Shown: piece after piece, positions 22,335 through 60,651 of the stretch
Position numbering within the stretch: the first letter of the stretch is position 1
Layout: each line of letters begins with the position of its first letter
NCBI GenBank assembly: GCA_030059665.1
Contig: JANVYR010000002.1
Span: 416,001-480,000 of the forward strand
DNA: 64,000 bases
Direction: 5' to 3'
From: Candidatus Calditenuis fumarioli
GTDB lineage: Archaea > Thermoproteota > Nitrososphaeria_A > Caldarchaeales > Calditenuaceae
Program-made: the position numbers and the translations under genes
Notes under the pieces: generated by a model
What the model saw: only the letters and a program-made list of their open reading frames with translations
The model's database searches: none
What the model was told of the DNA's origin: nothing

Positions 22335-24161
22335 TTGAAAGCGGAACGCGTCACCCGCTGTGCTTTAGTTGCAGCTGGCTTGATATCCGTAGCGCTCGGC
22401 ATCAGCATCCTCTCGTCTTCGAAGGCGACCGAGCCAGAGTTCGTCAATTGGTCTTACCCGAACGCCGACAAGTTCGGGGCCAACTTCAGCCCCCAGCGCT
22501 CGATAGGTCGTGAAAACGTGGCTCACCTCCAGAAGGTTTGGAGCTTCACTTTGAGGCGCGAACCGGGTGACCTCGGGTACGGAGCAATGGCTCCTCCGCT
22601 CGTCGTAAACGGAACCGTTTACGTGGCAACGCACGCTCCGTCGATACTGGCACTGGACGCGGCTTCCGGAACGCTGTTGTGGGAGTACAGGCCGGTATTG
22701 GACTGGCCGCCTTCCAAAATCGAACTCCACATCCACGGCATGAGCTATTACAACGGAACCTTATTGTATCCTGCTCCGGACTGCACGATCAGAATAATTG
22801 ACGCGCATACTGGAGTGGAGAGGGGAAGGGTCGGGGGTCTCTGTGAGGGCGTGAGGGGCAACAAGGGCTCGTATTCCTCGCGCGCCCCACCTCCCAGCGT
22901 CGACGGCGTCCGAGGCGTGATGATTTGGGGACCTCTGGTCTCGGGAGGTACCGCAGCGGGCAGGGGCTTCGTCGCCGGCATATCCCTCACCAACAAGACC
23001 GTTCTGTGGAGGTGGTTCGTGATACCCCCCGCTGGCGGCGATCCCCTCTGGGATTTCAAGTACGAAGTCGAGAGGGGAGGGAGGGTAGTCGTTGGTAGAG
23101 CTAGGGGAAACGTTGAGCCCTTCGTGGGAGACTGGGGAGACCTCGGGCTTATCGGTAACTCGACACGCGCAGGAGGAGGAATCTCTTTCGGTTTCATGCC
23201 GATAGACGAGGAGAGGGGAATCGTCTATCTCAGCACGGCGAACCCTAAGCCGGACTTCAACGCCACGTACAGGCCTGGACCCAACCTATTCTCCTCATCG
23301 ATCATAGCGCTGAACGTGTCCACCGGAGATATGGTCTGGTACTACCAAGCTGTGTCTCACGACCTCTATGATTTCGATTGCGCGTGGAACACGGTACTCG
23401 CCAAGGTTCAGCGCGGGATGTTGGTTTTGAAGGGTTGCAAAAACGGCGTTCTGTACGCTCTCAATGCAACCGAGGGCACCCTGCTCTGGAAGTTCCAGCC
23501 CCCTGACATGGTCGTCTCGGTTGAGCTGGAGCGGGTGAACCTCACCAAGCGTTGGCACAACGAACCACAGATGGGCTCCTATCTCCAATGTCCCGGTGTT
23601 TTCGGCGGGATAGAATCCGATATCGCGCTGGCCTACGACAAGGTCTACGTAGCCGTGAACAACCTCTGCGTCCTGGTACATCCGCTACAAGTTGAGGGGT
23701 TCGGGAATTTCGTAGCCGGAGGCGTATACAATACGGCACCTCTCCCCGTAAACTCAACTATCTATGCGATCGACGTTAACACAGGTAAGGTCGTTTGGAG
23801 TCACCGAATGGACGTCCCTTATAGGGGATGGTTGACCGTCACTAATGGGATGTTGTTGGTGTCAAGGCTTGACGGGAAGATCGCATTCTTGGACGCGGAG
23901 AATGGGAACGTCCTCCACGTCATCAACGTAGACGGTGGTAGCATGAGAACAGGGCCGGTTATAGGTAGCGATAGGAACGGTAGGGTTTTGATGCTGCAAT
24001 TAGTAGAGCTCAGGGGCGGCGAGGTCGTGGAGCTGATTGCCTTCTCACTTAACGAAACGAACGTCCATTCCCTGATAGGCACCGCATTCTCAATTATTGG
24101 GACCATCATTGCCGTCGTGCCCTTGATAAGGTGGTTCTATAGAAGGAGAACAGTAAAATGA
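22335..24161 (+). CDS. PQQ-dehydrogenase-like beta-propeller protein #1, membrane anchored
   Basis: N-terminal TM; 'YRPGPNLFSSSIIALNVSTGDMVWYYQAVSHDLYDFDC'; repeated A.D..TG...W propeller motifs; C-terminal TM plus RRR. Confidence 0.85.
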   Translation: MKAERVTRCALVAAGLISVALGISILSSSKATEPEFVNWSYPNADKFGANFSPQRSIGRENVAHLQKVWSFTLRREPGDLGYGAMAPPLVVNGTVYVATHAPSILALDAASGTLLWEYRPVLDWPPSKIELHIHGMSYYNGTLLYPAPDCTIRIIDAHTGVERGRVGGLCEGVRGNKGSYSSRAPPPSVDGVRGVMIWGPLVSGGTAAGRGFVAGISLTNKTVLWRWFVIPPAGGDPLWDFKYEVERGGRVVVGRARGNVEPFVGDWGDLGLIGNSTRAGGGISFGFMPIDEERGIVYLSTANPKPDFNATYRPGPNLFSSSIIALNVSTGDMVWYYQAVSHDLYDFDCAWNTVLAKVQRGMLVLKGCKNGVLYALNATEGTLLWKFQPPDMVVSVELERVNLTKRWHNEPQMGSYLQCPGVFGGIESDIALAYDKVYVAVNNLCVLVHPLQVEGFGNFVAGGVYNTAPLPVNSTIYAIDVNTGKVVWSHRMDVPYRGWLTVTNGMLLVSRLDGKIAFLDAENGNVLHVINVDGGSMRTGPVIGSDRNGRVLMLQLVELRGGEVVELIAFSLNETNVHSLIGTAFSIIGTIIAVVPLIRWFYRRRTVK

Positions 24162-24834
24162 CTGATATAGCAACTATTAGCAAAGCGAACGCGCCACTGA
24201 AGTTGTACGCAAGTTCCTTCAACGCATCACGCTCGCTCTCTGATTTTGCTCCTCCTCTCAGGGACGACCATGACCACTGGGGGAACGTTGTGGATCCAGG
24301 GCTCTCCGAATTGAAGCGGGAATAGTGCCATTGTTCCGAGGCTATTTTCCACCCGGTATCCGTCAACACGAGCTCGCATCTCACGTTGGCTTCCCCCTCA
24401 AACCGACCTATGACGAAATTGCGCCCTTTGACGGAGGTCTTGAAGGAGACTGTTGCAGACTTCGTGCCAAGTCTCTCCGTAGAGAGCTCTGTAACAGATA
24501 TCTCAACGTCCTCGGACCCCGTCAGCACGATGCTGAGAAACGTCCTTATGGCACCCAACCCACGGTACGTCCCAGATAGACCTCCGCTCTCACCACTCCA
24601 TGTTATTGTTCCATCAGGCAGGTAGTCGTTCAGCAATGATGCCACATTCCTATCGCGATACTTCATCATGTGCTCCATCACGAACTCTGCGGGATCTGCC
24701 GTTACTGAAGCGCTAGACTCCCTGTCCTCAGTCTTGCTCGCCGGTACCAATAGCATCGATGGAAGCAAAACGATCAGGATTGCCGAGAGGGCTGCAACGA
24801 CGACGGTCACCAACAGTATTGCACGCGCTTGCAA
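24106..24834 (-). CDS. NTF2/SnoaL-like domain protein with N- and C-terminal TM helices
   Basis: 'YRDRNVASLLNDY...GTYRGLGAIRTFL...WKIASEQW' is SnoaL-like; paralogue of 44394-45254. Confidence 0.65.
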   Translation of the reverse strand: MQARAILLVTVVVAALSAILIVLLPSMLLVPASKTEDRESSASVTADPAEFVMEHMMKYRDRNVASLLNDYLPDGTITWSGESGGLSGTYRGLGAIRTFLSIVLTGSEDVEISVTELSTERLGTKSATVSFKTSVKGRNFVIGRFEGEANVRCELVLTDTGWKIASEQWHYSRFNSESPGSTTFPQWSWSSLRGGAKSESERDALKELAYNFSGAFALLIVAISVILLFSFYRTTLSRARRQ

Positions 24835-24850
24835 ACCGTGTTCCAGACTT

Positions 24851-25864
24851 TCACTTGAGGCCCAGCTCCTTGAACACTGAGACGTACTCCTCCAATCTCT
24901 CCACTTCAGCGGTAGTTGGGAAGTATTCGAGTCCCATCTCTAAGGGCTTAGTCACCCAGTATTTAGTGACCGTTCCGGGGCGCGACGGGACCATTCCCTC
25001 CAATTTCTCACCCATCTCGTCCTGCCACTCCTTTGAGAGGGCGAAGTCGAAGAAGAGCTCGGCTGCGTTCGGATGCTTCCCACCCCTGATCAGACACATC
25101 GTCCTCATGCAAGCGAGGTCCGGCAGGTCCATGAGGTGTAAGGTGTCTACGGGTCCTCCCTCAGCAGCATCGGCCATGCTTGCCTTCCTCAATGTGGCCG
25201 GGAACCCAATAAGCTGCTCACCTCTAGCAATGGAGTGGCTCATGTGGAGTAGACACTCGTAGTAAACCGGATCGAGTCTAGTGGCTATTCCTTGCAGGAA
25301 TTCACGCCACTTGCTCTCCTTCATGCGCCTCTTCAATGCGACCAGGTAGAACGCTCCCATCATTCCCTCGCTGAAGGTCGTCACGTACTGCGTCGCGACC
25401 CTTCCTTTCCACGGCCCGTTCAGGAATTCGTCAGATGTGGCCGGAAGGTCGTCCGCGCTCAGCTTCCCGGAGTTGTAAATCATTCCTATGGGTTCGATGG
25501 CCAGCGCAGCCCATCCGCCGTCGACGTTGAAGAACGTTCGCGGATAGTATCTGAACTGATCGGATTCGTAAGGACGCGTGAGCTCTTCCCTCACGAGCTG
25601 GAGGACGGCGTAGTGTGGCACTATAACCACGTCGGCCGTCGGCAACCCCGCGTTGACCTCGGCCCTGACCCTCTGTAGGATCGGGATGGGGTGGCTGCTT
25701 AAGAAATGAACGTGGATGTGAAGATCCCTGTAGCGCCTCCTGAACGCCGTGACCAAATTCAACAGAACGCCCCTAAGGGAGGCGTAAATTACTAGGTGAC
25801 CCTCCCTTTCTGCTTCTCGCTCCCTCACCATATTCCTCGCTATGAACTGCCGGTTATCCGCCAT
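24851..25864 (-). CDS. AfuA/FutA-type ABC substrate-binding-like protein lacking a signal peptide
   Basis: 'EGHLVIYAS', 'PTADVV', 'MIYNSGKL', 'HPNAAELFFDFALSKEWQ'; N-terminus has no hydrophobic stretch. Confidence 0.75.
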   Translation of the reverse strand: MADNRQFIARNMVREREAEREGHLVIYASLRGVLLNLVTAFRRRYRDLHIHVHFLSSHPIPILQRVRAEVNAGLPTADVVIVPHYAVLQLVREELTRPYESDQFRYYPRTFFNVDGGWAALAIEPIGMIYNSGKLSADDLPATSDEFLNGPWKGRVATQYVTTFSEGMMGAFYLVALKRRMKESKWREFLQGIATRLDPVYYECLLHMSHSIARGEQLIGFPATLRKASMADAAEGGPVDTLHLMDLPDLACMRTMCLIRGGKHPNAAELFFDFALSKEWQDEMGEKLEGMVPSRPGTVTKYWVTKPLEMGLEYFPTTAEVERLEEYVSVFKELGLK

Positions 25865-25999: not shown

Positions 26000-26491
26000 A
26001 TGGCGAAGGAGTCCATCGATTTCAGGGACGCATCGAACCTTTTCCTCAGGGTGGCCCTCTGGAATGTCGTTGCTGCGGTTGCGTTCACGGTCCCAGTGCT
26101 CATACCCAGATTAGCCTTCCCCATACTCCTCACGCAGTGGGGTTCAATTTACATGGTCCTCGGATATCTCGCCTTCTTGCTCTTCGGGGTCATAGGACCG
26201 GTCTGCTGGTCGGTAGTATACTACATGAATGGTCTTCTGAACTACAAGACGGAATACGATAAGGCGCTCACGCTTTTCCATGCCATAACGAATGTTATCT
26301 CTGCGTATTGTGTGTCCACCCTTCTTTTCATTGGTGGTTACATCGGAGCTAGAGCCGTCTATGAGGGGGAGTCGCTGGTCAACGTTGGCGTAGCGATGGA
26401 AGTCGTCGAAATCCCAGCCGGTTTCTTCATAGGATTAGCAATTATAAGTACCATAGTCGGTTTGCTGAACCTCAAATTCGTAAGAACGTGA
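26000..26491 (+). CDS. 4-TM membrane protein (paralogue of 45266 and 45775 genes)
   Basis: 'WGSIYMVLGYLAFLLFGVIGPVCWSVVYY' motif is shared with the two other copies. Confidence 0.75.
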   Translation: MAKESIDFRDASNLFLRVALWNVVAAVAFTVPVLIPRLAFPILLTQWGSIYMVLGYLAFLLFGVIGPVCWSVVYYMNGLLNYKTEYDKALTLFHAITNVISAYCVSTLLFIGGYIGARAVYEGESLVNVGVAMEVVEIPAGFFIGLAIISTIVGLLNLKFVRT

Positions 26492-26871
26492 TTGTAGGAT
26501 AGCAAACAGCATTCGAGTATAACCATACGCTAAGTTGATGTCGAGAATACATCTACTCGGTCATCACCTCTGAGGGATGAGTTAGCGTCCCGCCGGTCTA
26601 TTTCTTTTCGTGTTCAACTTATGTTGTCTCTTCACAAATGTCGGTTCTCTCATCCCTCTGGCTACAATCCTCATGCTTGGAGAGGCTGACGGATTAGGTA
26701 GCATAGCACCACCATACTCGGGAACAGAGTTTGGGACGGGCCGTCACGCTGCGTTTAAACCCGACTGAATGGGGGAGCCGCGCAGGGTGCGTCACGTCGA
26801 TAAAAATTGGTGACCTTTAAGATGTGACGATTAAAATATTTATTAAGTTCCGACATGATATCCGTCGACGA

Positions 26872-27786
26872 ATGCTGCGGGCCTCAGGCGTCACGAAGAA
26901 GTACGGTCGGCTGGTGGCCCTAAGGGACGTGTCCTTTGAGGTGGGCCGGGGGGAAGCGTTAGGCATACTAGGACCGAACGGCGCCGGTAAGACCACGTTA
27001 ATCAAATGCGTCTTAGGGTTGCTGAACTTCGATGGCGACATAACGGTTGACGGAATCGACGTCAAGAGGTATGGTGCAGATGCCAGGAGGAGGATGGGTT
27101 ACGTGCCCCAGAAGCTAGCGCTTCACGACAAACTATCGATCCTCGATGAGGTCAAACTGTTCGCCAAACTGAAAGGGGTTCACGATGAAGACAGATTGAG
27201 GGATCTGTTGGAGAGCAACGGGCTCTGGGAGAGGAGAAAGGATCCGGTGGGAAGCCTCTCTCAGGGCATGCGTCAGCGTCTCATACTGGCCCTTACGTTG
27301 CTGGCCGATCCAGATGTCCTGCTGCTCGACGAACCTCTCAGCAACGTAGACGTTGAGGGTCAGATGGAGATACTCTCACAGTTGGAGGAGAGGAAAAGGG
27401 AGGGCCGGACGGTCGTCATAACTTCCCACATAGTCGGTATAGGGAAGGTGATCGACAAGGCCCTCGTGATCAATTCGGGTAGGGTCATCTCGTACGGGAC
27501 CACAGAAGAAGTCATGCGACTTCTCAAACTGAGGAGCAAAATCTACCTCAAGCTCAACCAGCAGAACGAGAAGTACAGGGCCGTCCTCAATGAGTTGAGA
27601 ACCCTCAATTACGTATATCAGGTGTCAGTAAGCGGTGATTGGACTATAATCGAGTGCGACGCTGAGCGCAAACCCAATGTCATATCCCAGGTGTTGAGCG
27701 AGGGTATACGTGTCGAGGACGTGATGACCGAGGAGGTGAGCCTTGACAAGTATTACTACAAGTTAATCTCAGGTGACGCAGCATGA
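26872..27786 (+). CDS. ABC transporter ATP-binding protein (NosF/CcmA-like)
   Basis: 'GPNGAGKTT', 'LSQGMRQR', 'LLLDEP', H-loop 'TSH'; start set at ATG 26872. Confidence 0.9.
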   Translation: MLRASGVTKKYGRLVALRDVSFEVGRGEALGILGPNGAGKTTLIKCVLGLLNFDGDITVDGIDVKRYGADARRRMGYVPQKLALHDKLSILDEVKLFAKLKGVHDEDRLRDLLESNGLWERRKDPVGSLSQGMRQRLILALTLLADPDVLLLDEPLSNVDVEGQMEILSQLEERKREGRTVVITSHIVGIGKVIDKALVINSGRVISYGTTEEVMRLLKLRSKIYLKLNQQNEKYRAVLNELRTLNYVYQVSVSGDWTIIECDAERKPNVISQVLSEGIRVEDVMTEEVSLDKYYYKLISGDAA

Positions 27787-28613
27787 AGTTATCACCGTTT
27801 TTTGCGCTTGTAATCCATAACTTCTTCGAGGGTATCAGAGCGAAGTGGGTGGTAATATACACTGCAGTCTTCTTCATGCTCTCAGTCAATGTTCCGATGC
27901 TCGTCCTGATATCCGCGCGATACCTCCCTCCGGACTATTTAGAGGCATATCTAGCCGCGCTCATGGCGCTCTCCTTCCCGTTCCTTCCACTGCTCTCTTT
28001 GCCCCTGAGTTCAACGTCGATCGTAGACGAGAAAGAAAGCGGCCTGCTAGAATTCACACTTTCGAATCCTATCTCGCGGTTGACATACATAACCGGAAAG
28101 CTCGCAGGTCATTTCCTTTCAACTTCTCTGGTAGTAGTCGCCGGCTTCCTCATCGCAGCACTTTTAGCCTACAACGTCAGAATCAGTCAGCTATCCGCCG
28201 TCTTACCGGTGATCGGTGCTGCGCTGCTCCTAAACGCCATCATGCTTGCCCTCGGGACGCTAATTTCGATCCTGTCGAGGCGGAAAGTTACCGCTCTGAT
28301 GGTCGCTATCTTCGCGTGGTTCCTAATGACGGTCTTAAGCGACATAGGTTCTCTCAGCATACTGGTCAGCGTTGCAGGTTCAGCGCCCTACGTACTCTTC
28401 CTGGTGGCGATCAATCCCATAGAGGCCTGTAGACTTCTGGGCGTTTACGGGATAAGGAACGTCGGCTTCACGGAACTGGGAAGCGTTGGACTGATTTTGA
28501 GACACCTTGTGGGCGAGAGCGCATGGATATTCCTTCTGAGCGTCCAAGTGATCTGGCTCGCTGTGTTGATCTCGCTCTGCCTGTCGATCTTCATCAGGTC
28601 CGAGATCGCCTGA
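27783..28613 (+). CDS. ABC-2 permease (NosY-like)
   Basis: 'SIVDEKESGLLEFTLSNPISR...GKL' and 'INPIEACR' fit the NosY/ABC-2 pattern; ATGA overlap with the ATPase gene. Confidence 0.8.
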   Translation: MKLSPFFALVIHNFFEGIRAKWVVIYTAVFFMLSVNVPMLVLISARYLPPDYLEAYLAALMALSFPFLPLLSLPLSSTSIVDEKESGLLEFTLSNPISRLTYITGKLAGHFLSTSLVVVAGFLIAALLAYNVRISQLSAVLPVIGAALLLNAIMLALGTLISILSRRKVTALMVAIFAWFLMTVLSDIGSLSILVSVAGSAPYVLFLVAINPIEACRLLGVYGIRNVGFTELGSVGLILRHLVGESAWIFLLSVQVIWLAVLISLCLSIFIRSEIA

Positions 28614-30507
28614 GCACCCTCTCCCTGACGAGAACCGCAAGGGCCAAGGCCATTATCAGGACGCTTACGATCAGCAAGAGAACGGACTGAGACGAAGGTT
28701 GAGGGGCCCCGCTTTCGGGCGAGACGGTCGTTTGCACCGTGATGGTTACAACCGTACGGACTGTTTCCTGTGCCAGGGTTCTCAACGGCCGTAGCGTGAG
28801 GAGATAGCCGGGATTGTTAACTGAGCTCATGCTCAGAACGATCCTCAGATTCCCTTCAACGTCCGTACCAAGTGACGGGGCGGCCATCGCTGGCCCTATG
28901 TTGGACCTCGATAGGAGCGGTTCGCCGGTGGCGGACTCGAGGACGTAAAGGTTTCCCGTGTAAGTGAGCGCCAGCAGAAAGTCGTTGACCGATGTGAGGA
29001 AAGCAATGCCCTCGCCTTTGAGGGTCCTAGACCATCTGATTTGTCCGGTGCTAGCATCGATTGCCATCAAAATGGCATCGGCTTGGTCAGGGAGATACAA
29101 CTCCGGTCTCGATGCGCTAGAGACCTCCTTGGACTCCAGTGGCAGCGAATAGAAGATGAGTCCCCTATCAGGGTCTGCTGCGAGGCCGAATACGCTTAAG
29201 GGTGGCGGGCTTAGAATTACGACACCGCTGCTGGAGGGAAAAGCTCTAGACATCTCTCCTTCGTTGAACGGATCCGGCGGTTTGTAATCTGATCTGTTCG
29301 ATGGCGGTCTCAAGAACCACCTAAGCCGGCCTGTCCCCTTATCAAGTGCGTAGAGGTAGCCGTTGCCGCACGCTGTGACCACCATGTCGCCGACTAACAG
29401 GACGTCGGTGTTGCAACCGTATCCGTAAACGTCGTGCGGTATCGCTTGGAAGGTCCAGATCACCTTGCCGGTCTCGGACTCTATCGCTATGACCGATGAG
29501 GAAGGGAAGTTCGGTCCCCTGCGCAATCGTCCATCCAACGACGGTAGCGGCTGGGAAACCGTCAGATAGACCGTCCCCGTGGCCTCGTCGACCGCCCAAC
29601 CGCCGATCCAGCTGGCCATTCCGCCAGCCCTCAACCTCTCGCCGTCCGCAGGCGACCAGTCACCGTACAATAATTTTTGGACGGAATCCCGGTCAAGGGA
29701 CTTCAGGTCGACAGCCTTGCTGCCGTCAAAAATCCACGCGTTCCTCAGCGATTGAACGAACTCGACGGACCAAGAGGGATCGTAACTCACCTGGGGTGGC
29801 ATGAGGAAGGTCCTCCAAAGTCTCTCAGGTCCACGCTGCGTCAACCTGAACCCCATGAGGAACGCCCTGCCAGCATCAGGTGCATCTGGGGATGTGCTCC
29901 CTACGACCAGGACCGACCTCTTCGAATCGTAGGCGAAGTTCACAGGGTACCCTCCGTACGTGCCGGCGTTTCCCTCGATGCGCTCATTACCTCCGAGGAG
30001 ATCGACGGTTGCGAGCAGCCTACCTGTGTAGATGTCGAGTAGGACTACCGATTGCCAGGGTGTGCCTATTGCCAGGGCCTCTGCCCCCGCTATGTTGACT
30101 ATTTTCACGTTGGTCACATGACCTAACTGATCCCTCAGCACCTGTGTCGAGGTTGATCCCGGTCTTGGTATCTCCAGGGTCCAGAGCAGTTTTCCGCCCC
30201 TTAGATCGAAGGCGATGACCACGAAACCATTAGTGACCACGTAGCCCACACCTAGTCTGGTTAGTGGGGTGTGGGTCACCCCGTGTATTCCGGATCTGCC
30301 CGGCGGCAGCGGCATGAACGACTCCTGAACGAGGTTGACGACGTCCTCCCTGCTCAAGTCAGGAGCCTTCACGTGCTTGACGTTACCCTGGTCGTACCCT
30401 GTCGTGGTCCAGTCTACTGGGTCCCCTAGCGCGGTGGCCGACGCTAGCAAGGCGATGAGGGTTAGAGTTAGAACGGTTGATGGGTTGACGCTCACCGCCT
30501 GTGTCAT
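28594..30507 (-). CDS. PQQ-dehydrogenase-like beta-propeller protein #2 with degenerate metal motif
   Basis: 'RRGPNFPSSSVIAIESETGKVIWTFQAIPHDVYGYGC'; signal peptide, Thr/Val-rich linker and C-terminal TM. Confidence 0.8.
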   Translation of the reverse strand: MTQAVSVNPSTVLTLTLIALLASATALGDPVDWTTTGYDQGNVKHVKAPDLSREDVVNLVQESFMPLPPGRSGIHGVTHTPLTRLGVGYVVTNGFVVIAFDLRGGKLLWTLEIPRPGSTSTQVLRDQLGHVTNVKIVNIAGAEALAIGTPWQSVVLLDIYTGRLLATVDLLGGNERIEGNAGTYGGYPVNFAYDSKRSVLVVGSTSPDAPDAGRAFLMGFRLTQRGPERLWRTFLMPPQVSYDPSWSVEFVQSLRNAWIFDGSKAVDLKSLDRDSVQKLLYGDWSPADGERLRAGGMASWIGGWAVDEATGTVYLTVSQPLPSLDGRLRRGPNFPSSSVIAIESETGKVIWTFQAIPHDVYGYGCNTDVLLVGDMVVTACGNGYLYALDKGTGRLRWFLRPPSNRSDYKPPDPFNEGEMSRAFPSSSGVVILSPPPLSVFGLAADPDRGLIFYSLPLESKEVSSASRPELYLPDQADAILMAIDASTGQIRWSRTLKGEGIAFLTSVNDFLLALTYTGNLYVLESATGEPLLSRSNIGPAMAAPSLGTDVEGNLRIVLSMSSVNNPGYLLTLRPLRTLAQETVRTVVTITVQTTVSPESGAPQPSSQSVLLLIVSVLIMALALAVLVRERVLRRSRT

Positions 30508-30644: not shown

Positions 30645-30891
30645 GGAAATCCTTATCTATTGACCTCTTACTTCACCTCTACGCTATGGAAAGGAAATCG
30701 GGGCTGCTCGGATTGAGCCTGGCCGTCGTCTCCGTGCTGGCTATGCTGATCACCTCTTCGGTGGCCTTGGCGCAGCAGCAGGCACTGGACTGGGCGAGGT
30801 ACAACGGAGTCCCTGGGAACTGGAACTGGAGCCCGCAGACTCAGATCGACAAGGAGAACGTGAAGTTCTTGGAGGTGAAGTGGGTATTTCC
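30645..30891. repeat. 247-bp identical inverted repeat (partner 42830-43076) covering the upstream region and first 69 codons
   Basis: Direct base-by-base comparison with the reverse complement of 42830-43076. Confidence 0.9.
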
Positions 30892-53730: not shown

Positions 53731-54843
53731 CAATGGGATGACCTCGTTAACGAGCATCTCTGCAGTCCTCAGCGACTCTGAGTAGGACAGGTCCCCGAAG
53801 CGAGTCAGCAATACGAAGGAGTTGGCGCCGGACTCGGCCAACGACCTCCTCATTTGGGCCGCCACACGATCTGGCGCCCCGATGAAGGCGATTCCCCGAT
53901 TAACTGCGTACTCAGCTGCATTGTTGCCATCTATTACGTTGGTCTTCAGCTCATTCAACAAAAAGTCATCGATCGGGGTGGAACCGGTGAAGGCCCTAGT
54001 CCACCTTACGGACCATTCGCTGAAGAGATACTCCAGGTGGCGTTTGATTGCCACCTCACCCCTTTGCCTAGCCCTGTGGTCGTCTTTGTCCACGAGAACG
54101 AGCTTCGAGAGGGACAGATAGGGGCCTTTCCTGTTGACCGAAGTGGATGCTCTCGATTCGAACGTTCTTCTGTAGTGCTCGAAATGCTCTCTGGTGGTCC
54201 CCCTCAACCAGCTCAACCACCCCCTCACTATGTTGTAGCCGTTTTCAGCAGCCCATTCTACAGCCTCCCTCCTCCTTACGGGGAACCAGAGAGGAGGATG
54301 CGGTCTCTGATAAGGCATTACGGGCGGCAACACGTCCTCGAACTCGTAATATCTCCCCTTGAAGGAGAACCTGGCCCCTCCTGATTTGAAATATTCTATC
54401 AGGAACCTTGTGGCCTCGATGCTCATCTCGCGGGCAACCTCCGGGTCCAGTTTCATGCAGGCTAGGGCCCTGCTCCCGACGTCCACCCCGCTCCCCACCC
54501 CCAACTCGAGTCTGCCCTTGCAGAGGTGATCTAACATTGATACTTCCTCCGCCAACAACAGCGGGCTCCTCATGGGTAGGACGTAGACGAGGGCACCGAG
54601 TCTAACGCGGCTGGTCCTCTGCGAAGCAGCAGCAATTATTGCGGGCTGAGACGGAGAAGGCCTGCTGGGGTTAACGTGCTTCTCGGTGAAGAAGACCCTC
54701 TTCAGTCCTATCTCTTCAAGGGCTTTGACGTGCTCAAGTTCCATATCATAAAGCTCGTGTAGCTGTTGTTTTGATCCGGCAATTGATATCCTAATTAGTA
54801 CCGAGAAGGCTTCAAGATCTAGGTCCTCAATAGTGGGGATCAC
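53716..54843 (-). CDS. LLM-class flavin-dependent oxidoreductase
   Basis: 'FTEKH', 'RTSRVRLG', 'LLAEEVSMLDHLCKGRLELGVGSG', 'PHPPLW'. Confidence 0.9.
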   Translation of the reverse strand: MIPTIEDLDLEAFSVLIRISIAGSKQQLHELYDMELEHVKALEEIGLKRVFFTEKHVNPSRPSPSQPAIIAAASQRTSRVRLGALVYVLPMRSPLLLAEEVSMLDHLCKGRLELGVGSGVDVGSRALACMKLDPEVAREMSIEATRFLIEYFKSGGARFSFKGRYYEFEDVLPPVMPYQRPHPPLWFPVRRREAVEWAAENGYNIVRGWLSWLRGTTREHFEHYRRTFESRASTSVNRKGPYLSLSKLVLVDKDDHRARQRGEVAIKRHLEYLFSEWSVRWTRAFTGSTPIDDFLLNELKTNVIDGNNAAEYAVNRGIAFIGAPDRVAAQMRRSLAESGANSFVLLTRFGDLSYSESLRTAEMLVNEVIPLLIRS

Positions 54844-55167: not shown

Positions 55168-55896
55168 TTATATGTTTTTTATCAAGTAAGTATAATGTCT
55201 TCTTAAACTATGGTCTGGATACTTCTTCACGACGACTTTACGGTTTAGTAGATTGCTAAACAAACTTTCTATAAAAGCCAAAAGAACATCGTCCACTCTG
55301 ACATCGAAATCGGTGAATCCCATGAACCTATTCACACGCAACAAGTAGTTATGTTTAATTCGGGTTAATGATATATCGGCATCAAAAATTTCCTTAAAAA
55401 TAGCTAATGCTGACACGCATCTTTCATTCGTCTTATGTTTTGTATGGGTTAGAACAAATTTTGCCAACCTGTTGCCTAACTCCCTCAAGAAAACAGAACT
55501 ATGATACGAGTAGAATGGATCAAGCAGACGGAACGCATGGAACAAAGCATTTACTACGATATTTCTGATGACAACATTCGCATTCATTTCTATGAAATTC
55601 ATATCATTGTGATGACTTAATTGCGTTGTGTTGAAAACATCCAGTATCTTTTTCATAAGCTCCTCCCTTTTTGAGAGATCAGGCGCAGAGAGAAAACTGT
55701 ACTCGATCAACCTTTCAATTCGCGCGAGATACTTGACTGCTTTACCAGTTCTGATCCTTATAGCTAGCCCATCATTCGTTAAGGACTTCAGGTGATAATG
55801 AACTAGTTGTCTGTCCACACCTAATTTTCTGGCAATTTCGCTGGCAGCCATGGGTTCCCTTACAATTGAGAATAGCACCGCGAGGCTCTGCCTCAC
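55168..55896 (-). CDS. ArsR-like HTH regulator with C-terminal V4R-like domain (AT-rich)
   Basis: 'ASEIARKLGVDRQLVHYHLKSLTNDGL' HTH; C-terminal 'FLRELGNRLA...LLAFIESLFS' is V4R-like; start uncertain. Confidence 0.7.
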   Translation of the reverse strand: MRQSLAVLFSIVREPMAASEIARKLGVDRQLVHYHLKSLTNDGLAIRIRTGKAVKYLARIERLIEYSFLSAPDLSKREELMKKILDVFNTTQLSHHNDMNFIEMNANVVIRNIVVNALFHAFRLLDPFYSYHSSVFLRELGNRLAKFVLTHTKHKTNERCVSALAIFKEIFDADISLTRIKHNYLLRVNRFMGFTDFDVRVDDVLLAFIESLFSNLLNRKVVVKKYPDHSLRRHYTYLIKNI

Positions 55897-55951
55897 GTCA
55901 AAATAATTTTTACAAATATATATATATAAAGATTCGATGATGTGACTCGGG

Positions 55952-57190
55952 GTGAGGGTTATGAGCCCTAGGTTCAGTCTGGTCCTGTCTTCAGTTGCCC
56001 TGATTGCCGCGATAATCGTCGCAGGGTATGTGGTCGTGCTCTCAGAAGGTTTAAGGAACGACGTACGAAGATCGGTAAACGACCTCACCAGCGACCTGAA
56101 GTCGGTGTCTGATAGGCTGCAAACCCTCGAACAGCTGATCAACCTGTACGCGCGGGCCGCTGGGATAGAGTCCCCAGCTCAGGCCGAACAGCTCATTAAA
56201 GAGAGACAGGAGCTTCAGGCCAAAATAGAGGGAGCCAGGAGGGAAAGCGGTACCCTGCGCATTTACGGCAGCGTTGATTTCAGGGACGTCAAGTCATTGA
56301 TCGACGCTTTCCAGGCAAGATATCCATTTATAAAAGTGACTTACGAAGAGATGAGACCGCCAGAGGTTTACACAAGGGTTACCAGCGAACTCGCCGCCAA
56401 CAAGCCCACCGCCGACATTGTGATAATCAGTCATACGACTGGTGTAAGGCTAGCAGCAGAGGGAAGGTACATGCCCTATGTTTCGCCGGAGTCTAAGTCT
56501 TACCCCGACTCTTTAAAGGATAAAGACGGTCTTTGGACGGCTTTCGTACTGCTACCCATATCACTCGTGTACAATACAAAGCTGGTCAAACAAGAAGAGC
56601 TTCCCAGGACTTTGGAAGAATTAGTGAACCCTAAATGGAAGGGAAAAGTCGTAATGCATGACATCACTCTAGGAACGGTGGGAACCCAGTGGCTGGTTTC
56701 TCTGAAGAGTTATGTAGGTGAGAGTAGGTGGAATGAGTTCGTAAATGGGCTTCTGAATTTGAAACCAGTCCTTGACATCGCGGTTTCTGCTGTTGCGGAA
56801 AAGGTTGCGGCAGGCGAATACCCCATTGGTATCATAACCAACCTACACGACGTGGTTCGATTAAGACTTCAGGGGGCTCCGGTGGACTACTTCCTTCCGG
56901 AAGGCGTCCCGTTGCTTACGTCCTTCTCTCACATCGCCATCATTAAGACGACGCAGAACCCCAATTCAGCCAAGCTCTTCGTCGACTTCGCCCTCTCACA
57001 GGAAGGTCAGGTCATAATAGGTAACGTGCCCGTGAGGTTCCCGGCAAGACCAGGAACTCCGGCCGACTTCGCATTGGAGAAGGTCCTGAAACCGGGCATC
57101 AAGATCGAACCTTATCCCACGCAGGAGGCAGTTGAGAAGGCTAGACAATGGGCTGACGAGTTCAAGAAAATGGGCTTCGGTTCTAAGTAG
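55952..57190 (+). CDS. Fe3+/thiamine-type ABC substrate-binding protein with TM and coiled-coil stalk
   Basis: 'GTLRIYGS', 'LVYNTKLV', 'LVNPKWKGK', 'NPNSAKLFVDFALSQEGQ'. Confidence 0.85.
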   Translation: MRVMSPRFSLVLSSVALIAAIIVAGYVVVLSEGLRNDVRRSVNDLTSDLKSVSDRLQTLEQLINLYARAAGIESPAQAEQLIKERQELQAKIEGARRESGTLRIYGSVDFRDVKSLIDAFQARYPFIKVTYEEMRPPEVYTRVTSELAANKPTADIVIISHTTGVRLAAEGRYMPYVSPESKSYPDSLKDKDGLWTAFVLLPISLVYNTKLVKQEELPRTLEELVNPKWKGKVVMHDITLGTVGTQWLVSLKSYVGESRWNEFVNGLLNLKPVLDIAVSAVAEKVAAGEYPIGIITNLHDVVRLRLQGAPVDYFLPEGVPLLTSFSHIAIIKTTQNPNSAKLFVDFALSQEGQVIIGNVPVRFPARPGTPADFALEKVLKPGIKIEPYPTQEAVEKARQWADEFKKMGFGSK

Positions 57191-58916: not shown

Positions 58917-59810
58917 TTACTTCGTTAGTTCTAGTTGGCGTATAACATTTCGGGATGGGACTCCATCTATCAATTTTCTATTCAGCATCCAGCTTGCAGC
59001 ACTATATAGTTCTTCATATGTATAAGGTTCCCATAAATTCCATTTATCAATAAGATTAACATCACTAAGGTCTGGAAGGTCAATGCCAATCTCACTCGCA
59101 AGTTGCAGCAAGTACTCCTCACACACCTTGTTATATTTTAATGCCTCCTTATTTATAATTTTAATTGCCTTATTAATCGCGTATATGAGGCTCCGAACTA
59201 CCCCATCGCTCAACCTATTAGACACAATCAGTACTGTTGGTCTCGTCCTACGGAGTTTGACTAGCTCGATCATTCCGTATAGTTTGGCTATTCTGTTCCA
59301 CGGTCCGAGGAGGACGGCTGCATCTACGGTCCCTTTAATTAACGCCTGAAATCTCTTATGAGGTTCAGAAATGTTGACGAGCTTCAATTCCCGCTCCGTT
59401 ACAAATGGTTCTAAGGCTTCCAGCAAATTGTATTTAGAACCGGTACCTTCCTCTACAGCGACAGCTTTGTACTTAAGGTCCGTAAGCGTTCTGATGTCAG
59501 AACCTTTCCTTGCGAACAATGTGAAGCTCGAGTTCAACGTCTCATCGCCTGGCGGAGATTTTGCTACCGCTTTCCCGTCCTCAGATATCAACAACCTAGC
59601 AACTGCAACCCACTCACCACAATGGTAGAAGTCTGTAATACCATCAGCCATCGCCCTGACGTAAGCCGAGGTTTTGTCGGGATATTTCGGCAGTCTGTTC
59701 CATTCTATTAACAACCCTTGCTCTCTGAAGAAACCCTCTCTGTCCGCGATCAGCTCGGGCAGATACCAGTGAAATGCCGCCGGATTGACCGCATACCTTA
59801 CCGTTGTCAT
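58917..59810 (-). CDS. SsuA/TauA/NMT1-like binding protein without signal peptide
   Basis: 'IADREGFFREQGL', 'DIRTLTDLKYKAVAVEEGTGS', 'GTVDAAVL'. Confidence 0.75.
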   Translation of the reverse strand: MTTVRYAVNPAAFHWYLPELIADREGFFREQGLLIEWNRLPKYPDKTSAYVRAMADGITDFYHCGEWVAVARLLISEDGKAVAKSPPGDETLNSSFTLFARKGSDIRTLTDLKYKAVAVEEGTGSKYNLLEALEPFVTERELKLVNISEPHKRFQALIKGTVDAAVLLGPWNRIAKLYGMIELVKLRRTRPTVLIVSNRLSDGVVRSLIYAINKAIKIINKEALKYNKVCEEYLLQLASEIGIDLPDLSDVNLIDKWNLWEPYTYEELYSAASWMLNRKLIDGVPSRNVIRQLELTK

Positions 59811-59961
59811 CCCATCTGTTATGTATGAACAGTTATAAAAGGAATTTTTAGGGTAGGTGTCGGTTAAAATATAGCCAGCTCCTCAGCGCGTAGGATATTG
59901 ATGATGAGCGAGGGATATAAATATCTTCTGGGATAAGATGTCAAATCATTTTCAATCATCG

Positions 59962-60651
59962 TCATTGAGAAGTTACGATATATTTCATGTATATTGCGTC
60001 CAATATCGCCCACTGAACGTCGCAGTTGAATTTTGCCGCCTTTATGCATTTCTTTAACTGCTCGCTGGATAATATCTTCTTCTCAATAGCTCGTGAGACG
60101 ATCTCTATCTCTTCTGTCAGATAACTCATTCGCTGGTAAAAGAACTCTAACCCTTCAGGTTCGATCCACTCGTATTTCTCAGAAAGCGCTTTCAACCTTC
60201 GTGGTAACTCGTCTATTAACATGCTTTCTGCGAGCGTTGCAGACATCGCATACAACCAATTGGTGTGCCTGACAAAGTCGAGATAAGAATTGACCGCCAT
60301 CTTCACCCCAGGTATGATTTTTGATTTCTCTAGGACCTGTCTTGGAATGCCAGCAGCCTTAGCGAACTCAGCCCATCCCTCGACATCGCCGAGATAACCA
60401 CCCAGCCCCTCCCTCTTGGACAACCTGATCAACCAGAGCTTCCTCAGTTCGGGATCAGTGCATTTTGATAATATCATGGCGTCCTTCACAGGAACGCATT
60501 TGAGGAAATAGTAGCGGTTTACTATCCATCCCCTTAGCTGATGAGGTGTCAATTTCCCAGAATAAAGTAACTTCATGAATGGGTGATGCCAGATATACTT
60601 AGCCTTTAAGGCCTCCCTGACCCTTTCGGCTAGGTTCAATGAACCCGACAC
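59962..60651 (-). CDS. pqqC: PqqC homologue (TenA/PqqC heme-oxygenase-like fold), probably with altered active site
   Basis: 'HHPFMKLLYSGKL', 'NRYY', 'KDAMILSKCTDPELRKLW', 'YEWI', 'QWAILDAI' align by eye with PqqC hallmarks; the 'DHDG' His reads 'KREG'. Confidence 0.75.
   Translation of the reverse strand: MSGSLNLAERVREALKAKYIWHHPFMKLLYSGKLTPHQLRGWIVNRYYFLKCVPVKDAMILSKCTDPELRKLWLIRLSKREGLGGYLGDVEGWAEFAKAAGIPRQVLEKSKIIPGVKMAVNSYLDFVRHTNWLYAMSATLAESMLIDELPRRLKALSEKYEWIEPEGLEFFYQRMSYLTEEIEIVSRAIEKKILSSEQLKKCIKAAKFNCDVQWAILDAIYMKYIVTSQ

What the first reader, a model, noticed from the sequence alone, without database searches (positions are those of the whole stretch)
22335..60651. Candidate archaeal quinoprotein-copper surface redox system: six anchored PQQ-type propellers with cupredoxins, a CuA protein and a PqqC homologue
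Seen: six paralogous exported, C-terminally anchored propellers, two cupredoxins, one CuA-like protein, a NosFY-like ABC pair, several importers and a PqqC homologue within about 38 kb. All six propellers carry the RxGPN-type segment, and most carry H-D-x-W/Y-D-x-D. No c-type cytochrome (CxxCH) gene is evident. Established: bacterial type I PQQ alcohol dehydrogenases pass electrons to cytochrome c or to blue-copper proteins such as azurin, and Nitrososphaeria rely heavily on copper carriers. Inference: this is an archaeal array of extracellular PQQ dehydrogenases of different specificities wired to a copper electron chain. I know of no description of such a locus.
Basis: partly seen in the sequence, partly recalled or inferred. 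Interest (0 to 1): 0.88.

Follow-up and report, generated by a model that had tools for sequence, protein, structure and literature searches.

The report
Archaeal PQQ-type dehydrogenase and copper island
A hot-spring archaeon carries a 38-kb imported block of genes for six surface-tethered relatives of bacterial PQQ alcohol dehydrogenases and three small copper proteins; such arrays are already published for related archaea and none has been tested at the bench.

Summary
Window 22212-60651 encodes six Pfam PF01011 eight-bladed propellers, the only ones in this 1.57-Mb genome. Each has an N-terminal export segment and a C-terminal membrane anchor. With them lie two paralogous cupredoxins, a CuA-like protein, an ABC-2 exporter pair, three importer sets and a PqqC homologue. 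The genome shows no cytochrome c.

The block is conserved gene for gene (45-76% amino-acid identity) in 5 of 13 Caldarchaeum genomes. It was not found in 18 genomes of the host's own family. Its GC3 is 36-74% against 86-91% in the flanks, so it is an acquired island.

- P1, P3, P4 and P5 keep the XoxF/PedH-type Asp-x-Asp site.
- P2 and P6 lack the catalytic Asp.
- The PqqC homologue has lost His24, His84, His154 and Tyr175, and no PqqB or PqqE exists. PQQ must therefore be scavenged or replaced.
- Copper genes co-occur with the propellers everywhere I looked, but electron transfer between them is inferred only.

It is not undescribed. Aylward and Santoro 2020 and Sheridan 2023 reported such arrays, the lone pqqC and the blue-copper idea in related archaea. 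This scan has also found the same kind of island on other DNA, including Caldarchaeales.

The parts
22212..24161 (+). P1, PQQ-ADH-type propeller. Exported and C-terminally anchored. Keeps HDLYDFDC and KGCKNG.
   Evidence: PF01011 168 bits; motifs; TM segments 50-68 and 621-639; orthologues 51-58% identical in Caldarchaeum
24106..24834 (-). NTF2/SnoaL-like protein with a TM helix at both ends. Always next to P1.
   Evidence: SnoaL_4 E 5e-4; Atlas structure neighbours are NTF2-like; adjacency conserved in G024, G036, G040, G050 and G056
24851..25864 (-). Solute-binding protein
   Evidence: SBP_bac_6 and SBP_bac_8; 67% identical orthologues
26000..26491 (+). 4-TM membrane protein of unknown family, a paralogue of 45257-46290
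   Evidence: Atlas hits are Nitrososphaerota-only clusters (run on the paralogue at 45775-46290)
26824..28613 (+). ABC-2 exporter pair (ATPase plus ABC2_membrane_2 permease)
   Evidence: lies between the P6 and P2 orthologues in Caldarchaeum; not the nos system
28594..30507 (-). P2, propeller lacking the Asp pair and the Lys (HDVYGYG, CGNG)
   Evidence: PF01011 80 bits; residue columns
30683..32932 (+). P3, propeller with HDIWDYDC. Mosaic paralogue of P5.
33128..35344 (+). P4, propeller with HDLWDWDC
35349..35834 (+). Cupredoxin A, N-terminally anchored, type-1 site His99/Cys138/His148/Met153
   Evidence: Cupredoxin_1 44 bits, Copper-bind 35 bits; ligands invariant
36066..36551 (+). Cupredoxin B, paralogue of A with Glu at the axial position and a helical insert
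36558..39330 (+). ABC importer: TOBE-type ATPase and two permeases
39574..40590 (-). Exported Kelch propeller, weakly like NanM/YjhT mutarotases
   Evidence: Kelch families, NANM 58.5 bits; mutarotase models far below their cut-offs
40804..43035 (-). P5, propeller with HDLWDWDC. This is the one modelled.
43156..44253 (-). ABC importer ATPase
44358..45254 (+). Second NTF2/SnoaL-like protein with TM helices at both ends and a Thr-rich stalk
   Evidence: Paralogue of 24106-24834; sequence
45257..46290 (+). Two tandem 4-TM proteins (45257-45778 and 45775-46290)
46287..48357 (+). SBP_bac_1 solute-binding protein, and a protein of unknown function with a hydrophobic N-terminus and a C-terminal TM helix
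48261..49820 (-). DHA2-type MFS transporter overlapping P6
   Evidence: MFS_1; efflux_EmrB 152 bits, below its cut-off; adjacency conserved
49777..51738 (-). P6, propeller lacking the catalytic Asp and the Glu (HALVPLE)
   Evidence: PF01011 187 bits; alignment to 1KB0; its wider family has E/D-H-E at that place
51807..52277 (+). Small exported Cys-rich protein, always upstream of the CuA-like gene
52307..52900 (+). N-terminally anchored CuA-like cupredoxin (H...C-x3-C-x3-H; Gln or Leu at the Met position)
52897..53730 (+). Polytopic membrane protein of unknown family
53716..54843 (-). Luciferase-like (FMN/F420) oxidoreductase, without a close orthologue in the Caldarchaeum loci
55168..56142 (-). 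Winged-helix regulator beside the PqqC-like gene
   Evidence: same pairing in L013, L016, L020 and L027
55952..59810 (.). SBP (+), fused double permease (+) and SsuA/NMT1-like binding protein (-)
59962..60651 (-). Cytoplasmic PqqC-like protein. His24 to Ile, His84 to Arg, His154 to Leu, Tyr175 to Phe, Lys214 to Asn.
60727..63398 (.). Right edge of the genome-specific segment: unknown 410-aa gene, TnpB-like gene, tRNA-Glu

Best explanation
Window 22212-60651 is a horizontally acquired metabolic island of a hot-spring Caldarchaeales archaeon. It encodes a cytochrome-free oxidation module on the outer face of the membrane.

Shown:
- It holds six Sec-type exported, C-terminally tethered members of the PQQ alcohol/methanol dehydrogenase fold.
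- It holds three membrane-tethered copper proteins: a type-1 cupredoxin, a Glu-axial paralogue and a CuA-like protein.
- It holds exporters, importers, tethered NTF2-like proteins, 4-TM proteins and a PqqC-like protein.
- All of these are kept together across two families of the order.

Inferred:
- P1, P3, P4 and P5 keep the metal Asn, the Asp-x-Asp pair of lanthanide enzymes, the Lys that stands for Arg331 and the stacking aromatic residue. They oxidise alcohols or aldoses outside the cell, using PQQ with a lanthanide or Ca ion.
- The cell has no PqqB or PqqE, and its PqqC-like protein lacks the catalytic residues, so PQQ is taken from the community.
- Electrons pass to the tethered cupredoxins and on to the CuA site of one of the two haem-copper oxidases, because the cell has no cytochrome c.
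- P2 and P6 lack the catalytic Asp and sit beside exporters. They have a non-catalytic or altered role.
For: Fold and family:
- PF01011 is passed by all six.
- The family profile hits XoxF 6DAM at E 3.8e-55 over positions 14-568 of 677.
- The AF2 model of P5 has pLDDT 90.5. PDB ranks 1-30 are all PQQ dehydrogenases (TM by target 0.61-0.77), followed by a gap down to BamB.

Active site:
- In phmmer alignments RPGPN falls on RPGDN of PedH and XoxF, and HDLWDWD falls on HDGWDFD / HDEWDYD.
- In 109 homologues of the P3-P5 group, Asp395 (108), Asp397 (109), Cys398, Lys420, Cys422 and Lys423 (all 109), His147 (108), His149 (107), Glu508 (108) and Trp333 (105) are conserved. Glu227 is present in 101.

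Export and anchoring.

The module travels as a unit:
- Gene-for-gene conservation in G024, G036, G040, G050 and G056.
- The PqqC-like gene and PF01011 occur in exactly the same 6 of the genomes searched in the class (61 for PF01011; 76 for the PqqC model).
- A distant Nitrososphaerota contig again joins PQQ propellers, an MFS transporter, PqqC-like plus HTH, an ABC-2 pair, a cupredoxin and an NTF2-like protein.

Acquired island:
- GC is 53.6% against 62-63% for the genome. GC3 is 36-74% against 86-91% in the flanks.
- Homology to same-genus genomes stops at window 21847 and resumes at about 63851.

Respiration:
- No cytochrome c.
- Two haem-copper oxidases with CuA subunits.

Literature: the same reading was published for related archaea (PMC7300363; PMC10640624).
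Against: - No PQQ synthesis genes were found. There is no PqqB. PqqE matches are only generic radical-SAM hits of 72 bits or less, which also ring in all 14 control genomes. The PqqC-like protein is below its cut-off and lacks its catalytic residues.
- All six propellers are far below the NCBIfam cut-off for the methanol/ethanol family (65-228 bits against 480). They score nearly as well against 'acido-empty-quinoprotein group A'.
- The vicinal Cys-Cys and the CCDxVNRG segment are absent. A GHxH segment stands in its place.
- The canonical metal Glu is only approximately placed. Glu227 lies two residues out of register, and it is absent in P1, P2, P4 and P6.
- The gene beside cupredoxin A differs between genomes: P4 here, P2 in Caldarchaeum.
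- There is no expression, cofactor or activity data for any archaeal member.
Confidence: 0.55

Rival explanations
1. The propellers are real quinoprotein dehydrogenases, but they feed the membrane quinone pool, as membrane glucose dehydrogenase does. The route would be their own anchor or the conserved 4-TM partner proteins. The copper proteins would serve another task, such as copper handling or supplying the haem-copper or N2O reductases.
For: - Three conserved 4-TM paralogues lie in the island. Their family is restricted to Nitrososphaerota clusters and faintly resembles a four-helix piece of oxidase subunit I (TM 0.59).
- PMC7300363 names the quinone pool as an equal alternative.
- Cupredoxin B sits in an importer operon that has no binding protein of its own.
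- The best NCBIfam match of cupredoxin A is the copper-resistance protein CopI, far below its cut-off.
- The genome has nine further Cupredoxin_1 matches outside the island, some of them NosZ-like or COX2-like proteins.
Against: - The 4-TM family has no invariant His or other evident redox ligand.
- Three different copper proteins are retained in every copy of the island.
- The ligands of cupredoxin A are invariant.
Confidence: 0.2
2. The propellers do not use PQQ at all. They would be 'empty quinoprotein'-type proteins of the same fold with another cofactor or none, acting as hydrolases or binding proteins. Tetrathionate hydrolase is a precedent of the same fold.
For: - No PQQ pathway in the genome.
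- PqqC-like active site lost.
- Strong scores against TIGR04528 acido-empty-quinoprotein, which is the best hit for P2.
- P2 and P6 lack the catalytic Asp.
- Cys-Cys absent.
- A rhodanese gene and a metallo-beta-lactamase-fold gene lie just left of the island.
Against: - Asp-x-Asp, Asn/Asp, Lys and the stacking Trp are almost invariant in 109 homologues of the P3-P5 group. This is the signature of a metal-PQQ pocket.
- Tetrathionate hydrolase is a far weaker structural match (TM by target 0.43-0.56 against 0.61-0.77).
- A PqqC-like protein that keeps the residues binding PQQ carboxylates co-occurs strictly with the propellers.
- The rhodanese flank is host DNA, not part of the island.
Confidence: 0.2
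3. The genes lie together by chance or through mis-called ORFs, and there is no functional module.
For: Some ORF starts are uncertain: P1, P3, cupredoxin A and the CuA-like gene overlap upstream ORFs.
Against: The same roughly 30 genes are found together at 45-76% identity in five genomes of another family. Sub-blocks appear again in a distant Nitrososphaerota contig.
Confidence: 0.02

Closest known systems
PQQ-dependent dehydrogenase arrays of non-ammonia-oxidising Nitrososphaerota: heterotrophic marine Thaumarchaeota (Aylward and Santoro 2020, PMC7300363) and Gagatemarchaeaceae (Sheridan et al. 2023, PMC10640624)
   Same: - Several divergent, co-localised PF01011/PF13360 propellers with signal peptide and TM segment.
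- No Cys-Cys, and DYD/DxD motifs.
- A lone pqqC.
- No cytochrome c, with blue copper or quinone proposed as acceptor.
- The propellers here are 35-50% identical to proteins named Thaumarchaeota, Nitrososphaerales or Nitrososphaerota archaeon.
   Different: - The host is a thermophilic Caldarchaeales, outside the 'mesophilic clade' to which Sheridan et al. assign the gain of pqqC.
- All six genes lie in one 38-kb acquired island, with three copper proteins, exporters and importers.
- Two propeller types have lost the catalytic Asp.
- Here the PqqC-like protein is shown to lack the catalytic residues, whereas those papers call it a PQQ synthase.
Lanthanide-dependent PQQ alcohol/methanol dehydrogenases XoxF (PDB 6DAM, 4MAE) and PedH (6ZCV)
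   Same: - Eight-bladed fold.
- Metal Asn in R-P-G-x-N.
- Catalytic Asp plus the extra Asp two residues on.
- An aromatic residue stacking on the cofactor.

   Different: - Only 16-20% identity.
- No vicinal Cys-Cys disulfide. Instead there are invariant Cys398 and Cys422 beside the active-site residues, and a GHxH segment.
- Lys in place of Arg331.
- Membrane-tethered through a Thr/Gln/Val-rich stalk.
- No cytochrome cL/XoxG partner.
Bacterial PqqC, pyrroloquinoline-quinone synthase (K. pneumoniae 1OTV/1OTW/3HLX; TIGR02111)
   Same: Full-length homology (E 6e-40 to 3HLX). Arg50, Lys60, Arg80, Tyr128, Glu147, Arg157 and Arg179 are kept.
   Different: - His24, His84, His154, Tyr175 and Lys214 are replaced by Ile, Arg, Leu, Phe and Asn.
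- Of these, Arg80, Leu149 and Phe170 (our numbering; the places of His84, His154 and Tyr175) are invariant in five archaeal orthologues. The places of His24 and Lys214 vary among them but are never His or Lys.
- The Arg/Leu/Phe combination at positions 84, 154 and 175 is rare: 2 of the 62 rows (the query included) with letters at all five compared positions.
- The score is below the family cut-off.
- No pqqA, B, D or E context.
Cupredoxin-coupled quinoprotein dehydrogenases of bacteria: methylamine dehydrogenase with amicyanin, type II quinohaemoprotein ADH with azurin (from my own knowledge of the literature)
   Same: A periplasmic quinoprotein hands single electrons to a small blue copper protein, which feeds the terminal oxidase.
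   Different: - Those enzymes use TTQ, or PQQ plus a haem c domain.
- Here there is no haem c.
- The copper proteins are membrane-tethered.
- Transfer is not shown.
NCBIfam TIGR04528, acido-empty-quinoprotein group A
   Same: Quinoprotein-like propellers; by my recollection of the family description, which I did not check here, they come from organisms without PQQ synthesis. It is the second-best model for P1, P5 and P6 (of the four scanned; P3 and P4 were not) and the best for P2.
   Different: Scores are 86-197 bits against a cut-off of 650, so none is a member.
CuA domain of Thermus thermophilus ba3 oxidase subunit II (2CUA, 1EHK)
   Same: His, then C-x3-C-x3-H, in the same register.
   Different: - E-values are only 0.02-0.04, and Pfam COX2 is not matched.
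- Gln or Leu stands at the Met position, though a distant homologue has Met.
- It has an insert of roughly 70 residues (my estimate from the HMMER gap and the alignments) with a C-x-x-C.
- It stands alone, without an oxidase subunit I.

Membership tests
PQQ-dependent dehydrogenase, methanol/ethanol family (type I; Pfam PF01011, NCBIfam TIGR03075) | Eight-bladed propeller fold of PQQ alcohol/methanol dehydrogenases | tested here: met
   The AF2 model of P5 has pLDDT 90.5. PDB ranks 1-30 are all PQQ dehydrogenases. The profile matches XoxF over its full length.
PQQ-dependent dehydrogenase, methanol/ethanol family (type I; Pfam PF01011, NCBIfam TIGR03075) | Score over the curated family cut-offs | tested here: inconclusive
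   Pfam PF01011 is passed by all six. NCBIfam TIGR03075 is not passed by the four scanned (P1, P2, P5, P6: 65-228 bits against 480); P3 and P4 were not scanned against NCBIfam.
PQQ-dependent dehydrogenase, methanol/ethanol family (type I; Pfam PF01011, NCBIfam TIGR03075) | Vicinal Cys-Cys disulfide over the cofactor | tested here: not met
   No CC in any of the six. The aligned segment reads GHxH or similar.
PQQ-dependent dehydrogenase, methanol/ethanol family (type I; Pfam PF01011, NCBIfam TIGR03075) | Catalytic Asp (Asp303 of MxaF) | tested here: inconclusive
   Present in P1, P3, P4 and P5. Absent in P2 (Gly) and P6 (Pro).
PQQ-dependent dehydrogenase, methanol/ethanol family (type I; Pfam PF01011, NCBIfam TIGR03075) | Metal ligands Glu177 and Asn261 | tested here: inconclusive
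   Asn is invariant in the six and in 24 island proteins. A Glu lies two residues out of register in P3 and P5 and in 101 of 109 homologues. It is absent in P1, P2, P4 and P6.
PQQ-dependent dehydrogenase, methanol/ethanol family (type I; Pfam PF01011, NCBIfam TIGR03075) | Bound PQQ and dye-linked activity | not testable with these tools
   Needs protein. PQQ is not among the ligands of the complex predictor.
Lanthanide-dependent subgroup (XoxF, PedH, ExaF) | Additional Asp two residues after the catalytic Asp | tested here: met
   D-x-D in P1, P3, P4 and P5, aligned on WDFD of PedH and WDYD of XoxF. Asp395 is kept in 108 and Asp397 in 109 of 109 homologues. Not met in P2 or P6.
Nitrososphaerota PQQ-dehydrogenase arrays (PMC7300363, PMC10640624) | Several co-localised, exported, membrane-bound PF01011/PF13360 genes; no Cys-Cys; DxD motif; lone pqqC; no cytochrome c | tested here: met
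   Sequence kinship to Nitrososphaerota proteins is 35-50%.
PqqC, pyrroloquinoline-quinone synthase (TIGR02111) | Score over the equivalog cut-off | tested here: not met
   179.7 bits against 240. The Caldarchaeum orthologues reach 222-238 bits, also below.
PqqC, pyrroloquinoline-quinone synthase (TIGR02111) | Catalytic His84 and the His154/Tyr175/Arg179 oxygen site, plus His24 | tested here: not met
   Arg, Leu, Phe and Ile stand at these places, with only Arg179 kept. Arg, Leu and Phe at the places of His84, His154 and Tyr175 are invariant in five archaeal orthologues; the place of His24 varies (Ile, Phe, Gln) but is never His.
PqqC, pyrroloquinoline-quinone synthase (TIGR02111) | Residues that hold the three carboxylates of PQQ (Arg50, Lys60, Arg80, Arg157, Tyr128) | tested here: met
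   All kept.
Type-1 (blue) copper protein | His, Cys, His, Met ligand set in a cupredoxin domain | tested here: met
   Cupredoxin A passes Pfam, with His99, Cys138, His148 and Met153 invariant. Cupredoxin B has Glu for Met and is below the Pfam cut-off.
CuA centre (COX2-type) | H...C-x3-C-x3-H-x2-M in a cupredoxin fold | tested here: inconclusive
   His, Cys, Cys and His are conserved, while the Met position holds Gln or Leu. Only weak sequence matches, no Pfam hit, and an unusable AF2 model with pLDDT 40.
NosDFY copper/sulfur maturation system | NosF and NosY together with NosD beside NosZ | tested here: not met
   The pair has only the generic ABC_tran and ABC2_membrane_2 domains. NosD and a NosZ-like gene lie on contig C1 at about 579-582 kb.

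The most novel reading that the evidence does not exclude
The island is a self-contained, transferable respiratory add-on that brings its own cofactor logistics. In this reading:
- The active-site-altered PqqC-like protein, with its paired regulator and importer, binds or senses scavenged PQQ or a precursor and does not make it.
- The two Asp-less propellers P2 and P6, fixed beside an ABC-2 exporter and an MFS exporter, hold or load the cofactor at the cell surface.
- The four Asp-x-Asp propellers would be archaeal lanthanide enzymes, none of which has been demonstrated to my knowledge, wired through tethered copper proteins in place of cytochrome c.
Probability: 0.15. Interest if true: 0.8.

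Novelty: new member of a known kind. Interest (0 to 1): 0.42.

Why it matters
No archaeal PQQ-type dehydrogenase has been purified, according to the papers read here. [quoted passage not shown]

The hot-spring versions offer thermostable, compact candidates for the first biochemical tests. Those tests would ask which cofactor and metal the enzymes use, what they oxidise, and whether blue copper proteins replace cytochrome c as their acceptor.

Two points found here bear on published annotations:
- The 'PQQ synthase' of this island lacks the catalytic residues of PqqC. Whether the published marine and soil copies share this was not tested here; earlier notes of this scan say they are altered too.
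- Part of the propeller repertoire has lost the catalytic Asp.

The island also shows that the whole module can move between archaeal families as one block.

Tried and rejected
- My first guess, that the 'PqqC' is a TenA thiaminase because an NMT1/THI5-like gene lies beside it, was wrong. It matches PqqC over its full length, and its only other NCBIfam match is the CADD family, not TenA.
- Expression. Two metatranscriptome runs from the study of a DNA holder were laid on window 33128-53000. No read mapped, so this is no test. No RNA holder was listed.
- Complex prediction of the P4 ectodomain with cupredoxin A gave no answer, score 0.00. It is not evidence either way.
- The AF2 model of the CuA-like protein from a five-row alignment had pLDDT 40 and was not used.
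- The idea that the 4-TM proteins are small b-type cytochromes was dropped, because 13 members share no invariant His.
- Reading the ABC-2 pair as NosFY was rejected.
- A PqqD-family ORF 5 kb left of the window was checked as a possible trace of PQQ synthesis. It stands alone beside eRF1 and a methyltransferase, with no radical-SAM partner.
- A search for att-like direct repeats between the two island borders found nothing above chance.
- Recent transfer from the sampled Caldarchaeum species was considered and rejected. Island proteins are no more similar (45-76%) than two housekeeping proteins (43-46% and 76%). The donor is therefore unsampled.
- An empty site could not be reconstructed. In same-genus genomes the two flanks lie next to other genes and on different contigs.

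Full report
What is there.

ORF listing and Pfam scans show about 35 genes between window 22212 and 60651. Six of them encode proteins of 637-749 residues that pass Pfam PF01011, the propeller of glucose/ethanol/methanol dehydrogenases, at 80-187 bits against a cut-off of 26.7:
- P1, 22212-24161 (+)
- P2, 28594-30507 (-)
- P3, 30683-32932 (+)
- P4, 33128-35344 (+)
- P5, 40804-43035 (-)
- P6, 49777-51738 (-)

A whole-genome search finds no other PF01011 match in the 1.57-Mb, 91%-complete assembly. Each protein has a hydrophobic N-terminal segment without a twin-arginine motif and one C-terminal TM helix followed by basic residues. P3, P4 and P5 reach the anchor through a Thr/Gln/Val-rich stretch that the model leaves unstructured.

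- Cupredoxin A (35349-35834) passes Pfam.
- Cupredoxin B (36066-36551) is its paralogue, with Glu at the axial position.
- A CuA-like protein lies at about 52307-52900.
- There is an ABC-2 exporter pair.
- There are three importer sets.
- There is a PqqC homologue.

None of the 37 proteins called in window 20050-63059 carries CxxCH. The genome has neither a cytochrome c maturation gene nor a class I cytochrome c.

Whose genome, and is the block a unit?

The nearest database proteins are named Candidatus Caldarchaeum sp.. The DNA is held by hot-spring metagenomes from several studies. Among 60 relatives in the same order, PF01011 was found only in 5 of 13 genomes of one genus of another family. 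It was found in none of 18 genomes of the host's own family. One of the five is a single contig of 1,680,938 bp, which I take, from memory, to be Ca. Caldiarchaeum subterraneum.

In those five genomes tblastn and ORF mapping recover almost every gene of the stretch at 45-76% amino-acid identity. The genes fall into the same sub-blocks:
- P1, an NTF2-like protein and a binding protein.
- P4, P5, a 4-TM protein, a Kelch protein, importer genes, cupredoxin B and a membrane protein.
- The PqqC-like gene, a regulator, a binding protein, a permease, a second binding protein, a Cys-rich protein, the CuA-like protein and P3.
- An NTF2-like protein, two 4-TM proteins, a binding protein, an unknown gene, an MFS transporter, P6, the ABC-2 pair, P2 and cupredoxin A.

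The flanking host genes are not part of it. The PqqC-like gene occurs in exactly the same 6 of the genomes searched in the class as the propellers (61 genomes for PF01011; 76 for the PqqC model). A contig of a distant Nitrososphaerota again joins propellers, an MFS transporter, PqqC-like plus regulator, an ABC-2 pair, a cupredoxin-type protein and an NTF2-like protein. Another distant contig has a homologue of the CuA-like protein beside a propeller.

An acquired island.

The stretch has 53.6% GC against 62-63% for all three contigs. GC3 is 36-74% in island genes against 86-91% in flanking genes. DNA homology to the six same-genus genomes ends at window 21847, at the end of a rhodanese gene. 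It resumes near 63851, after an unknown gene, a TnpB-like gene and tRNA-Glu. In three of those genomes the rhodanese gene runs on into other DNA, so the island is not at this site there.

MAG binning can lose islands, so absence elsewhere in those genomes is not proven. No flanking direct repeats were found. Island proteins are no closer to Caldarchaeum than two housekeeping proteins are, so the donor is an unsampled lineage of lower GC.

Are the propellers quinoproteins?

A profile of 24 island propellers matches lanthanide-dependent XoxF (6DAM) at E 3.8e-55 over nearly its full length. All other good PDB matches are PQQ alcohol, methanol, sorbose or glucose dehydrogenases. An AlphaFold2 model of P5, built from 113 sequences (pLDDT 90.5, pTM 0.87), has PQQ dehydrogenases in PDB ranks 1-30 (TM by target 0.61-0.77). 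BamB and tetrathionate hydrolase follow far behind.

In the HMMER alignments R-P-G-P-N lies on R-P-G-D-N of PedH and XoxF, which holds the metal Asn. H-D-L-W-D-W-D lies on H-D-G-W-D-F-D and H-D-E-W-D-Y-D, that is, the catalytic Asp and the extra Asp that marks lanthanide enzymes. C-K-N-G lies on D-R-N-G or P-K-N-G, the place of Arg331 or Lys.

In 109 homologues of the P3-P5 group:
- Asp397, Cys398, Lys420, Cys422 and Lys423 are kept in all 109, and Asp395 in 108.
- His147 (108), His149 (107), Glu508 (108) and Trp333 (105) are nearly invariant.
- Glu227 is present in 101.
- The metal position holds Asn in 65 and Asp in 42.

This is the pattern of a conserved catalytic pocket.

The differences from the bacterial enzymes are real:
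- There is no vicinal Cys-Cys. A GHxH segment stands where CCDxVNRG would be.
- The metal Glu is out of register or missing.
- NCBIfam scores (65-228 bits) are far below the family cut-off of 480. They are close to those for the 'acido-empty-quinoprotein' model.

P1 keeps D-x-D-C and K-G-C-K. P2 has Gly at both Asp positions and Gly for the Lys. P6 has Pro at the catalytic Asp and no Glu. The wider family of P6 mostly reads E/D-H-E at that place, so the Caldarchaeales P6 clade is a derived form that has lost the base. It is nevertheless 68-72% identical between families. P2 and P6 are always next to the ABC-2 exporter and the MFS transporter.

Cofactor supply.

The PqqC homologue matches K. 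pneumoniae PqqC over its full length (E 6e-40). It keeps Arg50, Lys60, Arg80, Tyr128, Glu147, Arg157 and Arg179. It has Ile, Arg, Leu, Phe and Asn at His24, His84, His154, Tyr175 and Lys214. The replacements at the places of His84, His154 and Tyr175 are invariant in five archaeal orthologues, including the distant contig; the places of His24 and Lys214 vary among them but never hold His or Lys. They are rare in an exhaustive profile search: the Arg/Leu/Phe combination appears in 2 of 62 rows (the query included) with letters at all five compared positions. Most rows there keep His84 and Tyr175, with residue 154 varying.

The genome has no PqqB. Its only PqqE-like matches are generic radical-SAM hits of the kind seen in all 14 control genomes. 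A lone PqqD-family ORF lies beside eRF1. I conclude that this cell does not make PQQ by the known route. The PqqC-like protein more likely binds PQQ or a related tricarboxylate than makes it. Its role is not known.

Electron path.

Shown:
- There are three outward-facing, membrane-tethered copper proteins with conserved ligands in every copy of the island.
- There is no cytochrome c.
- There are two haem-copper oxidases with CuA subunits elsewhere in the genome.

Inferred: the propellers reduce the cupredoxins, which then feed an oxidase. The alternative is that electrons enter the quinone pool through the anchors or the conserved 4-TM proteins. That family has no invariant His and only a faint likeness to a piece of oxidase subunit I. 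This alternative cannot be excluded. A complex prediction for P4 with cupredoxin A gave no answer, and metatranscriptome reads did not map. Neither result counts for or against.

Other genes.

The ABC-2 pair is not NosFY. NosD and a NosZ-like protein lie on contig C1. The binding proteins and ATPases match no specific NCBIfam equivalog, so their substrates are open. The Kelch protein weakly resembles NanM/YjhT mutarotases. That would fit aldose oxidation, but it is only a lead.

Comparison with what is known.

Aylward and Santoro (PMC7300363) described, for heterotrophic marine Thaumarchaeota, 4-19 divergent PQQ dehydrogenases per genome. These have signal peptides and TM domains, lack the Cys-Cys motif, carry DYD or DxD motifs in part, and come with a 'PQQ synthase'. 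The authors proposed that, lacking cytochrome c, these enzymes feed the quinone pool or a blue copper protein.

Sheridan et al. (PMC10640624) found up to eight co-localised genes in Gagatemarchaeum. They placed the gain of pqqC at the ancestor of the mesophilic clade. A 2026 paper again reports high expression (PMC13374868).

I found no paper in the held library that describes the cluster in Caldarchaeales. Earlier notes of this scan, however, had already reached the same reading on other DNA, including hot-spring Caldarchaeales.

The finding is thus a new member of a known kind. The new details are:
- the thermophilic host
- the single acquired 38-kb block
- the third, CuA-like, copper protein
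- the two propeller types without the catalytic Asp
- the loss of the catalytic residues in the PqqC-like protein

Verdict.

My confidence in the full mechanism (PQQ-type surface dehydrogenases with scavenged cofactor, coupled to copper carriers) is 0.55. Interest is moderate.

Noticed in passing
window 30640-32930 and 40804-43076: P3 and P5 are convergent inverted paralogues. Three blocks are 98-100% identical at DNA level (about 30640-30880, 31593-31830 and 32673-32930). Between them lie blocks of 41-80% identity. This looks like repeated gene conversion that spares variable segments.
   Followed up: partly
window 3125-6022 (+): This 965-aa protein carries an insert of about 465 residues (roughly residues 102-566). 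The insert is missing from its 495-511-aa homologues in the same genus and family, and from two Caldarchaeum genomes. It is present in G024, whose 964-aa protein is 81% identical. It looks like an intein.
   Followed up: partly
G000:C1:579586-582442: A NosZ-like 713-aa protein with a CuA/cupredoxin domain and a NosD gene lie on another contig. The archaeon may therefore reduce N2O.
   Followed up: no
G000:C2:410939-411199 (about 5 kb left of the window): A lone 86-aa PqqD-family ORF lies beside eRF1 and a methyltransferase, with no radical-SAM partner.
   Followed up: partly
G024:C1:209076-209747 (L013:19061-19747): The PqqC-like gene of the 1.68-Mb single-contig Caldarchaeum genome has one in-frame TGA near its 5' end.
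   Followed up: no
window 63607-63721: A segment of about 112 nt is conserved at 82-85% in same-genus genomes. Its last 35 nt match many places in these genomes, including the 3' half of the tRNA-Val gene at window 11741-11776. It may be an intron-bearing tRNA gene or a tRNA remnant that ARAGORN did not call.
   Followed up: no
window 62106-63059 (+): A short TnpB-like gene (Cas12f1-like TNB domain) lies next to tRNA-Glu at the right edge of the genome-specific segment.
   Followed up: no
window 51807-52277 (+): A small exported protein with seven conserved Cys is always directly upstream of the CuA-like gene. It matches no family. It may be a partner or a copper chaperone.
   Followed up: partly
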